Positions 21,148 through 55,706 of a DNA stretch of 64,000 nt are shown here, one piece after another. Under the pieces are notes generated by a model. That model worked only from the letters and a program-made list of their open reading frames with translations, made no database searches and was not told where the DNA came from. Made by a program: the position numbers and the translations under genes. This stretch comes from Promethearchaeota archaeon (GTDB lineage: Archaea; Asgardarchaeota; Lokiarchaeia; Sigyniarchaeales; SOKP01). Location: contig JAHLWS010000043.1 of the NCBI GenBank assembly GCA_019057795.1, positions 1 to 64,000 of the forward strand, written 5' to 3'. Position 1 is the stretch's first letter; every line of letters begins with the position of its first letter.

Positions 21148-21747
21148 TTATTTTTTAAGTTCAGCTAATCTTTTTATAACTTTTCTAATTGTTCTTAATC
21201 CTTCTTCATCGTTTTGAACGCCTTCCTTACCTTTATCGTTACTCCATAACGAAGCGCCTAAATTCGCTCCGAAGGCGCCACCTGATACGGAAACCATGTG
21301 ATTTTGTTGGTAGAAATCTAGAATACTTCTTATCGCAATTTCTTGCCCCCCGCTTCGATCACCGCCTACCGCAAGAGCTACACCATATTTTCCTTTAAAA
21401 ACATTCGGATTTTTGGCGACTAATCCACGACAACGATCTAATATTGTTTTTAATTGCCCTGAAAGATTTCCTTGAAATACGGGAGTGCCAAAAATTAAAT
21501 ATTTTGCTTCTTCTAATTTAGGATAAAGGTCTTGAATGTCATCTTTATGGATGCATCCTTTTTTTTCTCTAACGCAATAATTGCAATGTATACAAAATTT
21601 GATTTCTTTTCCCATTACGGTCCAAAACTCAGTGTCAAAACTAAATTTTTCTGCAGCGTACTTTAGTCCGTACTGAACGGCAAAATCTGTTCCTTGTTTT
21701 CTTGGGCTTCCACAGATTCCCAACAGTAGGTTCTTATTATCCACCAT
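21148..21747 (-). CDS. iron-sulfur flavoprotein (flavodoxin family)
   Basis: GSPRK, CIHCNYC...C, GTPVF, GGQE. Confidence 0.9.
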   Translation of the reverse strand: MVDNKNLLLGICGSPRKQGTDFAVQYGLKYAAEKFSFDTEFWTVMGKEIKFCIHCNYCVREKKGCIHKDDIQDLYPKLEEAKYLIFGTPVFQGNLSGQLKTILDRCRGLVAKNPNVFKGKYGVALAVGGDRSGGQEIAIRSILDFYQQNHMVSVSGGAFGANLGASLWSNDKGKEGVQNDEEGLRTIRKVIKRLAELKK

Positions 21748-21835
21748 AATTAATATTACAAATTTCTTCCTTTATTTATTATTAATCATTTTTATTCTAA
21801 CAAATGTTTTAAATTCTACTTAACTACTAATAACG

Positions 21836-22492
21836 ATGAATTCACACAAAAAATCGTGCTTAGCTAGAATCAAAATTAAATTTCCAGATCAGATATGGAT
21901 TTCGCACATTTTCAAGAAATTCCGCGAAATTCGAATGGAAATCGAATATTTTCTTCCTTACGATTTTGAAAATTCGATTGGAAATTCTATTATTGAAATT
22001 TTTCATTATAATATAGATTTATTAATAGATGAGGTTAAAAACCATAAATCTGTTTTTGATTTTAGCATTTTGGAGAAGGAAGATAATCGAGTTAAGTTTA
22101 ACGTAAAAACAAAGGATCCATTTTTATTAGATGCTATAATTAAATGTGGAGTGTTGGTTAATTTCCCCGTGCGAGTAAGAGACGGATACGCCTTCTGGAG
22201 GTTAATATCGACTAGAGAAAGGATAGATGAGCTGTTAACTCTTTTTGAACAGAAATCAGTAAATTTTACTCTCCTAAAAATTGGTAATTCTCCATATATT
22301 CTTGACGACAATAAGAATAAGTTAACTTTTAGTGAATCCAATGTGTTGGACAAGGCAATATCATCAGGATTTTTTGAAATTCCTAGGAAAATATCTTTAG
22401 AACAGTTAGCTAACGAACTAGGAAAATCAAAGTCAGCTTTATCTGTTATGTTAAGAAAGATAATTAAAAAGAAAGTAATATTTGAAACCTAA
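21836..22492 (+). CDS. HTH-10 (bacterio-opsin activator-type) regulator
   Basis: GFFEIPRKISLEQLANELGKSKS. Confidence 0.85.
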   Translation: MNSHKKSCLARIKIKFPDQIWISHIFKKFREIRMEIEYFLPYDFENSIGNSIIEIFHYNIDLLIDEVKNHKSVFDFSILEKEDNRVKFNVKTKDPFLLDAIIKCGVLVNFPVRVRDGYAFWRLISTRERIDELLTLFEQKSVNFTLLKIGNSPYILDDNKNKLTFSESNVLDKAISSGFFEIPRKISLEQLANELGKSKSALSVMLRKIIKKKVIFET

Positions 22493-22542: not shown

Positions 22543-23432
22543 TTATAACCATTCTTCCTTAAAAATTTCTCCTTCAACACTTACTATTATATACTTTATC
22601 GGCACTTTTCTATTTGCTCTTTTTGCAGCCTCTTGAACTAGCCCTAATAAACCACCACAACAAGGGATTTGCATCCTCATGACTGTTAGGGTGTTTATTT
22701 TTGCTTCATCAAACCAAGCTCTAATCTTTTCGATGTATATTTCTCTTCCTTGGTCGAGTTTAGGACAAGCGATCGCTATAGAACGTCCCTTTAAATATTT
22801 GTTATGGAATTCACCAAGAGCATAAGCAACGCAGTCAGCCGTAAGTAACACATCTGCTCCTTGAAAGTATGGGGCTGCAGGATTAATTAAATGCATTTGA
22901 ACGGGCCACTGTCTTAATGCGGAGGGGACTTTTCCGGTGATAACGGTCTGTTCCTCAAGCTCGTTAAATACCATTGTTTCTGCAGAAGCACAACTGCATA
23001 CATGAGAGGTTTCTTCAACCACATGATTTTCAAGTGTTATTCCGGAATCTTCTTGAGTAGAAGCACAGCCGCATTGGTGGGAATGTTCGGCAACAATTTC
23101 CTTCACTTGATTTAATTTTTCCTCCTCTTTTTCTGACAAAGATTCTAAATGTATCTCAACTGCTTCTTCGTCGAATTCTAACGCTTCTCTTTCAATAATC
23201 TCAAGAGCCCCTTCAGGGCATTCTCCTATGCAAGCACCCAAACCATCGCAAAAAACCTCGTTTACAACTTTAGCTTTTCCGTCTATAATTGCGAGTGCGC
23301 CTTGTATGCTATATAAAACAAATTTTATATTACTGCACAGCCGACTACGCAATTACCACATCCAGTACAAAGTTCCTCGTCTATCTCTATAATTTTTCTA
23401 TTTACAATTTTATGTTGTTTTGTTTCAGTCAT
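22543..23432 (-). CDS. 4Fe-4S dicluster protein interrupted by a 29-nt insertion (286 aa if spliced)
   Basis: ATG 23432: MTETK...CTGCGNCVVGCA|EGALAII...CDGLGACIGECPEGAL...LRQWPVQ...ACPKLD...PCCGG; removing 23304-23332 gives an 861-nt open frame. Confidence 0.9.
23304..23332 (-). other. candidate bulge-helix-bulge (archaeal tRNA-type) mRNA intron
   Basis: UAAUAUAAAAUUUGUUUUAUAUAGCAUAC; 8-bp internal hairpin; GUGC/GCAU helix with AGU and ACA bulges; paired exons. Confidence 0.8.
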
Positions 23433-23495: not shown

Positions 23496-24170
23496 TCAAT
23501 GAAATTTAGGACATTTTCTTTTCATGCTATTTTTAAAACTGCTTAACATTGCGTTAAATAGTTCAGTTCCTAATACTAAATAATATGATTCTCTGATACT
23601 AAAACCAGTAGGCTTTCCTTTAGATTTGGCTCTAAAAATGCAATCAAAAGTCTCTGCAATTAAGTATAAAAATTGTTCGCTACCCGAATAAAGTCTGCCG
23701 TATCTTCCAGCTTTAAGACCACCATCACCATCATAAAAACCAAGAAGCCAAGCTAATGCTTTTTTACCTGATGGAACACACCACCAATGCATTTTACTTC
23801 TCTTAGCCTCCATTTCAGCATTATCAATCAATTTAAAAATAAAATGTGGTATTGTTTTTTTTTATCTTTAGAACTGGTATAACCTTGGGACATAATATCA
23901 TTATACATTGTCCTAGAACCAAAACGAACTTCTGCTCTTTTAGATTCTATTATCTTACCTTTATACTCTCTGAAAATTGTTCTAATATTTACTTTTTTTT
24001 TATCTTATCCAACAACTTCAGCAAATCTAAAAACTCGCTCTTTATCTCGCTCTTTAAGACCGAAAAAAATTGTATACTTAGCTCTATCCATATATAAAGA
24101 TCCATCAGCATTTAAAAAACCGTACCAATAATAAACCTCGACATCACCTATTAAATCAGGATTTTTAGAT
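23496..24170 (-). pseudogene. decayed two-motif LAGLIDADG protein
   Basis: YWYGFLNADG near 24100-24130 and WLLGFYDGDG near 23720-23750, separated by stops. Confidence 0.7.
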
Positions 24171-54258: not shown

Positions 54259-54987
54259 TTAAGGAAATTGAAGGGTATTTAAAAACGATTTTGGAACTGT
54301 TCTGGCAATAGTTACTAGTTTAAATTTTATGAAATTAGATTTTGAAAGTAGTTCGATAATTCGACCTAAAGTATAACCTTGATGGAAGACATCATCAAAT
54401 ATTAACAAAGAACTGCCTTTTTCTATTTGCTCTAATAAGTCTACTGATTCCTCAAGTAAAAAGTACTTGTTATTCACATAATCTTTTCTATCTTTGTAAA
54501 AAGTTGTACTTGTTTTTTTTTCGAATAACTGATTATAAGGGATCCAAGTTAGGTTTATATTCTGAGATATTTCAGAAAATAAATTTATCATTTGTAAATT
54601 AGTTGTGGGAACCATTGTTGCATAAATTATATCCTCAATTTGCCAGTCCGAATTTGAAATTTTTTCGTTAAGAATTAGCTTTAGAATTTCATGGGAGTGT
54701 TTAAAGGGTTGCAAGCTGATTTTCCTTAATATATCTCCAAACCAATTTAAAGGATTTCCCTCATAATCTGTCTCATAAAAATGACCAGTTATGAAAGAAA
54801 TTTTGCTTTCAAGTGACTCTATACCTGAATGACATTCTTTTGGTTTATCTGAAACATTAGGGTAAAAACAAACTGGACATATTGATTTGTATTTATTTTT
54901 TAGAGCAAACTCTTCATTTGTGTCAGTATTTTTAATTATGATATCCCATGGGTCAAATCCTTTTAAATAACGAAAAGGCATATTCAT
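54259..54987 (-). CDS. ComF-like phosphoribosyltransferase-fold protein
   Basis: LLIFDDVFHQGYT PRPP-loop-like motif; CPVC...CH. Confidence 0.7.
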   Translation of the reverse strand: MNMPFRYLKGFDPWDIIIKNTDTNEEFALKNKYKSICPVCFYPNVSDKPKECHSGIESLESKISFITGHFYETDYEGNPLNWFGDILRKISLQPFKHSHEILKLILNEKISNSDWQIEDIIYATMVPTTNLQMINLFSEISQNINLTWIPYNQLFEKKTSTTFYKDRKDYVNNKYFLLEESVDLLEQIEKGSSLLIFDDVFHQGYTLGRIIELLSKSNFIKFKLVTIARTVPKSFLNTLQFP

Positions 54988-55706
54988 TATAAGATAGCTT
55001 GTGATAATAATTGTAGAAATTTAAGAATTATATTAGGTTTATGTTTTCCATATATTAAAATCGAACCGTTTTTATCAATTCTAATTGTAATCCATTTATT
55101 TTCTTGATATAACCCCTTAATTTTAATAGTTATCGCTTTTACTTGTTCTGATTGTTTAATAAGTTCAGTAATAATACCAAGTTCGTTAACATCATTTGCA
55201 TGTATATTTAATTCGTTTATTTTATCCGCTTCTATATAAGTCCTTTTAAGAATGAGTCTATGGATTTTTAAGGTAAGACCACTATTTTTTATTGATAGTA
55301 ATTTTTTCCAAACTTGCCATAACTGTTTTTCGTTAAAGATAATTGATTTAGAATCAGCTATATCACGTAAATAGACCTGTAATAAATGTTCAATCTTTTT
55401 CTCGGCTTTTCCAACTAGCAATAATTGATTATATTTTAAAATCAATTTTTCATGATTAATCCACAGAGTCTGTTTATCTTGGAACTTTTTATACTCTTCT
55501 ACTTTCATTTTAATCACAGATTTTTGCTGTATTGGTTCGAAAGAAAGATTCCTATAAGATTTTTTAGCACTTTCTACAAATAACTTTAGGGTTTGAGGAT
55601 CATCTTTATTCACTTTTACCTTACTCAAGACATCTTCATCTTCAAGATTATTTAGAGCATATTTTTCATTAATTTCTAATAATTGAAATGATGGTATTTT
55701 AATCAC
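54987..55706 (-). CDS. hypothetical protein
   Basis: 239 aa, stop overlaps next start. Confidence 0.75.
   Translation of the reverse strand: MIKIPSFQLLEINEKYALNNLEDEDVLSKVKVNKDDPQTLKLFVESAKKSYRNLSFEPIQQKSVIKMKVEEYKKFQDKQTLWINHEKLILKYNQLLLVGKAEKKIEHLLQVYLRDIADSKSIIFNEKQLWQVWKKLLSIKNSGLTLKIHRLILKRTYIEADKINELNIHANDVNELGIITELIKQSEQVKAITIKIKGLYQENKWITIRIDKNGSILIYGKHKPNIILKFLQLLSQAIL

What the first reader, a model, noticed from the sequence alone, without database searches (positions are those of the whole stretch)
23284..23356. Candidate bulge-helix-bulge intron inside a protein-coding gene (4Fe-4S protein)
Seen: the mRNA reads UGU GCA G[UAAUAUAAAAUUUGUUUUAUAUAGCAUAC]AA GGC GCA. The 29-nt insert (23304-23332) adds a stop and a frameshift right after CxxCxxCxxxC. 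Removing it gives CTGCGNCVVGCAEGAL, matching the protein's second motif (CPEGAL), and a 286-aa ORF. The insert folds as AUAUAAAA/UUUUAUAU. The junction forms a 4-bp helix GUGC/GCAU with 3-nt bulges AGU (5' strand) and ACA (3' strand). The exons pair further out (CU/AG, CG/CG, AGU/ACU, GUAAUUGCG/CGCAAUUAU). Established: archaeal EndA cuts after the 2nd nt of each BHB bulge. Here AG|U and AC|A are exactly the frame-restoring boundaries. mRNA BHB introns are known from few archaeal genes, chiefly crenarchaeal cbf5. Inference: EndA/RtcB-dependent mRNA splicing in an Asgard archaeon, possibly regulating an Fe-S/redox gene, loosely reminiscent of IRE1-XBP1/HAC1 non-spliceosomal splicing. Caveat: an A-A mismatch closes the 5' bulge, so this is a relaxed BHB/BHL.
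Basis: partly seen in the sequence, partly recalled or inferred. Interest (0 to 1): 0.96.

Follow-up and report, generated by a model that had tools for sequence, protein, structure and literature searches.

The report
tRNA-type intron inside Asgard protein gene
A 29-base insert that breaks an iron-sulfur protein gene of an Asgard (Promethearchaeota) archaeon has the shape cut by the tRNA-splicing enzyme, is kept at the same spot in many relatives, and is missing exactly from an RNA copy of the gene; this makes it a real mRNA intron of a kind documented so far for essentially one other archaeal gene.

Summary
On the minus strand, 29 nt (23304-23332) interrupt a 286-codon gene for a 2x[4Fe-4S] + AF_0155-domain protein. 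Removing them gives ...CVVGCAEGALAIIDG..., the sequence that uninterrupted homologues have.

The insert and its flanks form an hBHBh' motif. The homology-defined junctions fall after the 2nd nt of each 3-nt bulge (chance of the core motif at fixed ends 7e-4).

The same 29-nt insert sits at the same site in 16 distinct alleles from two genera. Both exons stay under purifying selection (dN/dS 0.08-0.28, dS saturated). The central helix is invariant, and two intron-stem pairs show compensatory changes.

A metatranscriptome contig lacks exactly these 29 nt. It carries the same 20 SNPs as contigs of a large companion run, of unrecorded type, that keep the insert. No DNA assembly searched holds the joined form. 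The genome has two EndA-family genes and RtcB.

The intron is patchy: 1 of 42 species in its genus. It travels with about 25 nt of each exon as a recombined cassette.

Regulation and the IRE1 analogy were not tested.

This scan had noted the same stretch in another window reading, and other candidate BHB mRNA introns elsewhere in this genome. I checked Elf1 myself, and it fits.

Verdict: a real BHB mRNA intron, new for Asgard archaea.

The parts
23333..23432 (-). Exon 1: ATG plus 33 codons and 1 nt. It encodes the N-terminus and the first CxxCxxCxxxC motif.
   Evidence: Fer4 family hits; intact in all 13 complete intron-bearing alleles.
23304..23332 (-). The 29-nt BHB intron.
   Evidence: The same length and site occur in 16 distinct alleles. 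It is left out exactly in RNA contig X2.
22543..23303 (-). Exon 2: the rest of the gene, with the second 4Fe-4S motif, the AF_0155 domain and the stop codon.
   Evidence: dN/dS 0.08-0.28 among intron-bearing alleles.
23335..23338 (-). Central helix H, 5' strand (GUGC, in exon 1).
   Evidence: Pairs with 23306-23309; invariant in 16 alleles; also predicted by RNAalifold.
23306..23309 (-). Central helix H, 3' strand (GCAU, in the intron).
23332..23334 (-). 5' bulge AGU, cut as AG|U.
   Evidence: The cut position equals the homology junction and the RNA junction. The third nt varies U/A.
23303..23305 (-). 3' bulge ACA, cut as AC|A.
   Evidence: the middle nt varies C/A/U.
23311..23330 (-). Intron hairpin h' (7-8 bp with a 4-6 nt loop).
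   Evidence: L057 and L069 show compensatory U-A to C-G and A-U to G-C changes.
23339..23346 (-). Proximal exon-exon helix h, 5' strand.
   Evidence: Pairs with 23294-23302. Every change seen is wobble-compatible, apart from one broken cell in one lineage (L005).
23294..23302 (-). Proximal exon-exon helix h, 3' strand.
23285..23356 (-). The whole hairpin cassette: distal 9-bp exon helix, proximal helix, BHB and intron. This is the segment that differs as a block between intron-bearing and intron-less sister alleles.

Best explanation
The 29 nt at 23304-23332 are a bulge-helix-bulge (tRNA-type) intron in the coding region of an mRNA.

The transcript folds so that exon 1 and exon 2 pair with each other (helix h). 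Four nt of exon 1 pair with four nt near the 3' end of the intron (helix H). The rest of the intron forms a hairpin (h'). This leaves two 3-nt bulges on opposite strands.

The archaeal splicing endonuclease, here probably an alpha/beta heteromer of the two EndA-family genes, cuts after the 2nd nt of each bulge. RtcB then joins the exons. This restores the frame and the second half of the first 4Fe-4S motif (CAEGAL), giving a 286-aa protein. Unspliced RNA would give only a 35-aa peptide, perhaps also an N-terminally truncated product.

What is shown: the structure; its conservation; the intact exons; the exact removal in one RNA contig; and the presence of the enzyme genes.

What is inferred: that EndA and RtcB are the enzymes.

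At the DNA level, the intron plus about 25 nt of each flanking exon behaves as a cassette. Homologous recombination has moved it between related lineages.
For: 1. Junction. Uninterrupted homologues (P0003, P0005, P0019, P0020, P0057) read ...C[AS]EGAL... exactly as the predicted spliced product does. At the nucleotide level the deletion that gives GCA GAA GGC is unique.

2. Geometry. The fold is hBHBh' with the cuts after nt 2 of each bulge. The same geometry, in register 0 only, fits a canonical 37/38 tRNA-Thr intron of this genome. It also fits the Elf1 gene's 32-nt insert. The chance of the core motif at fixed ends is 6.9e-4.

3. Conservation.
- The insert is 29 nt at the same site in 16 distinct alleles.
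- Helix H is invariant.
- Two intron-stem pairs and one distal exon pair change on both sides and stay paired.
- Eleven transitions in the exon-exon helix, at ten pairs, all keep or create a pair. The non-standard cells there are two transversions in L005, the broken distal helix of L056/L057/L069, and the 30-71 position.
- In 15 of 16 alleles the proximal exon-exon helix is fully paired. The distal 9-bp helix is also fully paired in 11 of the 12 less divergent alleles (16/16 exon-exon pairs; 14/16 in L005), against 7-12/16 in 18 intron-less alleles.

4. The gene is alive. All 13 complete intron-bearing CDSs are intact after removal of the insert. In exon 2, dN/dS is 0.08-0.28 with dS up to about 2. 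In exon 1, pN is well below pS.

5. RNA. Metatranscriptome contig X2 (575 nt, depth 16.4) covers 22771-23364 with exactly 29 nt left out at 23304. All 20 of its SNPs in the overlap are shared with X6 contigs 7 and 10. X6 contig 10 keeps the 29 nt (depth 100; none of it in the joined form).

6. The joined form is absent from 185,579 species genomes and 241 M metagenome records. The 29-nt form occurs 11 times there.

7. Enzymes. The genome has two EndA-family genes of about 200 aa and one RtcB. Asgard EndA is reported as the (alpha-beta)2 type with the L1 loop that confers broad specificity (PMC5829648).
Against: - Only one unambiguous RNA record supports removal. It is an assembled contig, not raw reads.
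- The companion run X6 has no recorded library type, so 'DNA keeps it, RNA lacks it' is probable but not certain.
- Contigs drop rare variants, so a minor intron-less DNA allele in that sample cannot be excluded.
- The central helix never varies, so it gives no covariation evidence.
- The minimum-energy fold differs slightly from the BHB fold (-25.0 against -22.6 kcal/mol). The stability z-score is unremarkable.
- A purine.purine mismatch closes the 5' bulge, so the motif is slightly relaxed.
- Genome-wide, BHB-like folds that join two open frames are as common as in slid controls. The motif alone proves nothing.
- Enzyme identity is untested.
Confidence: 0.86

Rival explanations
1. DNA-level polymorphism. 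The RNA contig comes from a co-occurring strain whose gene lacks the 29 nt, so nothing is spliced.
For: Contigs hide rare variants. X6's library type is not on record. Intron-less alleles of this gene are common in relatives.
Against: The RNA contig is identical to the intron-type allele on both flanks. It has no difference from the window in 23252-23364, and it shares all 20 SNPs with the intron-keeping X6 contigs. Every intron-less DNA allele seen has different flanks. The exact joined sequence was found in none of the DNA collections scanned. This rival also would not explain how 16 interrupted alleles stay under purifying selection.
Confidence: 0.06
2. Translational recoding. The ribosome shifts -1 or hops over the insert, and the RNA is not cut.
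For: The downstream frame is open through the insert, so a -1 shift before the TAA would give a continuous protein.
Against: An RNA lacking the 29 nt exists. There is no slippery heptamer before the stop. Variation in the insert follows the stem-loop pattern, with compensatory pairs and free loop and bulge positions, not codons. A read-through product would put about 10 extra residues inside the CxxxCP-x-x-A motif that all intact homologues keep contiguous.
Confidence: 0.03
3. Dead gene. The insert is a disabling insertion and the gene is a pseudogene, or only the downstream 269-aa ORF is used.
For: Gene callers annotate only the downstream ORF, which has TTG/ATG starts.
Against: Exon 1 keeps its ATG, frame and cysteines in every allele, with pN well below pS. 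Exon 2 has dN/dS 0.08-0.28 across saturated synonymous divergence. The insert is far more conserved than synonymous sites: it shows 3 differences in 29 nt where dS is about 2.
Confidence: 0.02
4. RNA-level removal by another route: a different nuclease and ligase, or self-cleavage, rather than EndA and RtcB.
For: The enzymes were not tested. Archaea also have other RNA ligases.
Against: The cut sites are those of the BHB rule, as in a tRNA intron of the same genome. A 29-nt RNA is too small for any known self-splicing intron. There is no Rfam match.
Confidence: 0.03

Closest known systems
BHB intron in the cbf5 (pseudouridine synthase) pre-mRNA of Crenarchaeota (Watanabe 2002; Yoshinari 2006; Yokobori 2009, PMC2738675)
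   Same: Both are short introns inside a coding region. Both have a BHB-like fold made of exon and intron. Both occur in hosts with a hetero-oligomeric EndA, and both show gain and loss among related lineages.
   Different: This one is in another phylum (Asgard/Promethearchaeota) and another gene (a 2x[4Fe-4S] + AF_0155 protein). It is much more sporadic: 1 of 42 species in its genus and 5 of 54 in a sister genus. It moves together with flanking exon sequence as a cassette. EndA cleavage has been shown for cbf5 but not here.
BHB intron in the 5' UTR of Haloferax volcanii HVO_1309 mRNA (PMC7714728)
   Same: It is an mRNA substrate of the tRNA splicing endonuclease.
   Different: That intron is in the untranslated leader and does not restore a reading frame.
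Archaeal pre-tRNA and rRNA BHB introns
   Same: They share the motif (3-nt bulges, 4-bp helix, flanking helices), the cut positions and the presumed enzymes. Asgard genomes are unusually rich in tRNA introns (PMC11291895; bioRxiv 10.64898/2026.10.13.758758).
   Different: Here the host RNA is a translated message. The exon half of the motif therefore has to be built from codons, which explains the frozen synonymous sites.
IRE1-dependent splicing of HAC1/XBP1 mRNA
   Same: Both are spliceosome-independent mRNA splicing that changes the reading frame, with RtcB-type ligation in metazoa.
   Different: In IRE1 splicing the nuclease is IRE1, which recognises twin 7-nt loops. Here the structure is a BHB. 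No stress regulation is shown here.

Membership tests
Archaeal BHB (hBHBh') intron | [quoted passage not shown] | tested here: met
   The bulges are AGU and ACA, and helix H is GUGC/GCAU. H is invariant in 16 alleles and was recovered independently by RNAalifold.
Archaeal BHB (hBHBh') intron | Flanking helices h (exon-exon) and h' (intron) | tested here: met
   Helix h: the proximal part is fully paired in 15 of 16 alleles. Helix h': 7-8 bp with two compensatory pairs. One purine.purine mismatch lies next to the 5' bulge, so the motif is slightly relaxed.
Archaeal BHB (hBHBh') intron | Splice junctions lie inside the bulges, after nt 2 | tested here: met
   The junction defined by intact homologues and by the RNA contig is AG|U ... 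AC|A. The same register fits a canonical tRNA-Thr intron of this genome. The 'after nt 2' rule itself comes from my knowledge of the literature.
Archaeal BHB (hBHBh') intron | The intron is absent from mature RNA | tested here: met
   One metatranscriptome contig lacks exactly 23304-23332. This is a single contig, not raw reads.
Archaeal BHB (hBHBh') intron | The host encodes the splicing endonuclease and the RtcB ligase | tested here: met
   Two PF01974 genes (C69, C74) and one PF01139 gene (C70) are present.
Archaeal BHB (hBHBh') intron | Cleavage by EndA, giving 2',3'-cyclic phosphate and 5'-OH ends; a circular or linear free intron | not testable with these tools
   This needs an enzyme assay or circRNA-seq.
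Mobile intron with a homing endonuclease | The intron encodes an endonuclease or maturase | tested here: not met
   The intron is only 29 nt. A broken LAGLIDADG-like ORF lies upstream of the gene in this window only. It is not at this place in the other intron-bearing loci whose upstream genes were listed.
Mobile intron with a homing endonuclease | Patchy distribution, with co-converted flanking exon sequence | tested here: met
   The gene tree needs at least 7 (at least 4 well supported) gains or losses. L002, L005 and L003 are mosaics around the intron.
IRE1-type unconventional mRNA splicing | Twin stem-loops with 7-nt loops, cut by IRE1 | tested here: not met
   The structure is a BHB, not twin 7-nt loops. 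I did not search for IRE1.

The most novel reading that the evidence does not exclude
This intron may be one member of a population of mini BHB introns that colonise protein-coding genes in Loki-type Asgard archaea. I confirmed a second one in Elf1 of the same genome, and notes of this scan list more. On this reading they spread at the DNA level as short hairpin cassettes that bring their own exon pairing partners. The closest archaeal relatives of eukaryotes would then routinely depend on the tRNA-splicing machinery to make translatable mRNAs.
Probability: 0.4. Interest if true: 0.92.

Novelty: new member of a known kind. Interest (0 to 1): 0.8.

Why it matters
The papers I could search describe protein-coding BHB introns for only two cases: cbf5 of Crenarchaeota, and one 5' UTR in Haloferax (PMC7714728, PMC2738675). 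I found nothing on Asgard mRNAs.

A coding-region intron with RNA evidence, in the archaeal lineage nearest to eukaryotes, shows three things:
- Enzyme-mediated mRNA splicing operates there.
- It works on a translated message despite coupled transcription and translation.
- Such introns can be gained by recombination.

It also has a practical side. Gene callers report this gene, and probably others, as truncated. Asgard proteomes and metabolic reconstructions are therefore affected.

Tried and rejected
1. Genome-wide census. I scanned G000 for BHB geometry that joins two open frames across an interrupting stop. This gave about 2,100 hits, the same as with slid partners. Adding a test for a paralogue alignment across the junction gave no excess either: 47 against 36-47, and 6 against 7-15 when gapless. 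The window's intron was recovered, but the method cannot count true introns. One candidate in the window (54957-54988) is an ordinary stop/start overlap.

2. RNA contig X4 (depth 922). It lacks the 29 nt, and its alignment stops exactly at 23303. The 66 letters beyond did not align. Its upstream sequence fits both the intron-bearing L003 and the intron-less L021. It is ambiguous and I did not count it.

3. X3 covers only parts away from the junction.

4. Other copies of the intron or cassette in the genome: none. In 400 genomes of the phylum the pattern occurs only in this gene.

5. Rfam gives no match.

6. NCBIfam gives only sub-threshold ferredoxin hits. The local Pfam copy lacks PF27217.

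7. The one H+-PPase match in G000 is an unbroken 738-aa frame, so I did not reproduce the claim.

8. ARAGORN intron boundaries were too unreliable for a broad calibration. Only two tRNAs fitted cleanly in register 0.

9. Marck and Grosjean 2003 could not be read.

Full report
**What is there.** The gene lies on the minus strand. From ATG 23432 it reads 33 codons that end ...CTGCGNCVVGCA. It then runs into GTA ATA TAA. A second frame is open from 23352 to the stop at 22543. Exon 1 matches the first 20 positions of 4Fe-4S binding-domain profiles and stops there. Removing 23304-23332 (29 nt) joins GCA G to AA GGC. This gives a 286-aa ORF.

**Homologues fix the junction.** A search with exon 2 found thousands of relatives, the nearest named Promethearchaeota, Lokiarchaeota and other Asgard groups. 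Full-length relatives read ...C(V/I)(I/V)(G/D)CAEGAL(A/E/Q)(I/V)IDGKA... without interruption. This is the predicted spliced product. At the nucleotide level only one 29-nt deletion yields GCA-GAA-GGC.

**The insert is conserved, not an accident of one assembly.** Eleven of the 120 best protein clusters lack the ferredoxin domain and begin with the translated insert (RSRLCS(N/D)IK...). Their DNA has a 29-nt insert at the same site. So does the DNA from pattern scans of genomes and metagenomes. The records come from JGI, NCBI, ENA and Logan. There are 16 distinct sequences of the 101-nt region. After removal of the insert, all 13 complete genes are intact. Exon 2 has dN/dS 0.08-0.28 with synonymous divergence up to saturation. 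Exon 1 has pN well below pS. The gene is therefore functional in spite of the insert.

**Structure.**
- The fold has an exon-exon helix h, a 4-bp helix H (exon 1 GUGC with intron GCAU) and an intron hairpin h'. Two 3-nt bulges lie on opposite strands, each 3' of its H strand. This is the arrangement in pre-tRNA.
- The homology-defined ends fall after the second nt of each bulge (AG|U and AC|A).
- The same geometry, in that register only, fits a canonical 37/38 tRNA-Thr intron of this genome.
- At fixed ends 29 nt apart, the core motif occurs at 6.9e-4 of positions in this genome. With the proximal exon helix it occurs at 7.6e-6.
- Across the 16 alleles H never varies. The bulge positions 39 and 67, the mismatch position 40 and the loop vary freely.
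- Two h' pairs change on both sides and stay paired, U-A to C-G and A-U to G-C in L057 and L069. One distal exon pair does the same in L056.
- G30 to C30 creates a new pair with G71. Eleven transitions in the exon-exon helix, at ten pairs, all keep or create a pair. Apart from the broken distal helix of L056, L057 and L069, and the 30-71 position, the only unpaired cells there are two transversions in L005.
- RNAalifold independently predicts H and h'.
- The distal 9-bp exon helix is broken in L056, L057 and L069, so it is not essential.
- Intron-less alleles of the same genus vary freely at synonymous sites. They pair at only 7-12 of the 16 exon-exon positions. Eleven of the twelve less divergent intron-bearing alleles pair at 16 of 16, and one lineage at 14 of 16.

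**RNA evidence.** I laid four public runs on the gene.
- Metatranscriptome X2 gave one contig (575 nt, depth 16.4) that covers 22771-23364. It has 23 single-letter differences and exactly 29 letters left out at 23304. It does not differ from the window between 23252 and 23364.
- X6 is a large run of the same study with no recorded library type. It gave contigs 7 and 10, which carry the same 16 and 4 differences in the overlaps.
- X6 contig 10 (23182-23440, depth 100) keeps the 29 nt.
- So the same strain exists with the insert in one library, and without it, cut precisely at the predicted sites, in an RNA library.
- A pattern that matches both forms found the 29-nt form 11 times in the genome and metagenome collections. 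It never found the joined form.
- A second RNA contig (X4) also lacks the insert but could not be assigned.

**Enzymes.** The genome has two EndA-family genes of about 200 aa and one RtcB. This fits the (alpha-beta)2 endonuclease with the L1 loop and broad specificity reported for Asgard archaea (PMC5829648). That these enzymes act here is an inference.

**Evolution.**
- The intron occurs in 6 of 400 species genomes of the phylum. These are this genome alone among 42 of its genus, and 5 of 54 in a second genus of the family.
- I built a tree of the protein with the flank columns removed. On it the intron-bearing alleles are scattered: at least 7 changes, of which at least 4 are forced by well-supported branches. 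Intron-bearing and intron-less alleles appear as immediate sisters.
- Sliding comparisons show mosaics. L002 matches an intron-less relative (L075) upstream and over most of the gene. But it matches the window at 56/59 to 60/60 per window, from about 40 nt before the ATG to just past the intron.
- L005 shows the same pattern against L076.
- L003 and the intron-less L021 share the upstream and N-terminal sequence but for two substitutions. They differ as a block from about 25 nt before to about 25 nt after the intron.
- The intron has therefore moved, or been removed, by recombination of a short cassette that includes its exon pairing partners.
- It encodes nothing, and no nuclease is implicated.

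**Context in the genome.** Notes from this scan list further candidate BHB mRNA introns in the same genome. I treated them as leads only.
- Elf1. I checked this gene myself. A 32-nt insert follows ...TGC CCA AAC, with helix CCAA/UUGG, bulges ACA and AUU, and outer stem CUUGC/GUGGG. Cutting after nt 2 of each bulge gives FTCPN|CGEKA, the zinc-ribbon motif.
- rpl11. Its N-terminal domain profile is matched only from position 26 in the gene's frame.
- hppA. The earlier claim was not reproduced.
- My own structural census could not separate true introns from chance.

**Comparison with what is known.** The papers I could search describe BHB introns in mRNAs only for cbf5 of Crenarchaeota and a 5' UTR in Haloferax (PMC2738675, PMC7714728). 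Recent work on Asgard introns concerns tRNA genes (PMC11291895; bioRxiv 10.64898/2026.10.13.758758). I found no report of an Asgard mRNA intron. The library does not hold most subscription journals.

**Verdict.** This is a real feature and a real intron of the BHB kind. It is new for its gene and phylum, with one direct RNA observation and strong comparative support. Regulation of the gene by splicing, and any link to IRE1-type splicing, remain untested.

Noticed in passing
window 23496-24169 (minus strand): A two-motif LAGLIDADG-like ORF (YWYGFLNADGSL ... LLGFYDGDGG) is split over three frames. The breaks fall at A/T homopolymers. It ends 64 nt upstream of the Fe-S gene's ATG. It is not at this place in the other intron-bearing loci whose upstream genes were listed. 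It may be a decayed free-standing homing endonuclease, or the breaks may be homopolymer errors.
   Followed up: partly
L074:1400-1560 (G000:C70, about 101318-101478): The Elf1 gene of the same genome carries a 32-nt insert with a clean BHB: helix CCAA/UUGG, bulges ACA and AUU, outer stem CUUGC/GUGGG. Cutting after nt 2 of each bulge restores FTCPN|CGEKA. This is a second mRNA BHB intron in this genome.
   Followed up: partly
L078 (G000:C73:108504-108824, minus strand): The rpl11 N-terminal domain profile is matched only from position 26 to 58 in the 141-aa frame, below the family cut-off.
   Followed up: partly
G000, whole genome: ARAGORN finds only 29 tRNA genes, 16 of them with introns, in a genome scored 100% complete (7.5% contamination). 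Many tRNA genes are probably interrupted beyond recognition, as reported for Asgard archaea.
   Followed up: no
L002:1300-2310, L075, L003, L021: Intron-bearing and intron-less sister alleles differ as a block around the intron. The block is as short as about 80 nt (L003 against L021) or about 200 nt including the 5' end of the gene (L002 against L075). These are recombination mosaics.
   Followed up: yes
window 21148-22492 and related loci: The neighbourhood is conserved. An HTH_10 regulator lies on the opposite strand. The flanking genes recur in many relatives: an FMN reductase, a glutaredoxin-like gene and a Pyr_redox_2/rubredoxin-type oxidoreductase. This suggests a redox or oxidative-stress role for the AF_0155-domain protein.
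   Followed up: no
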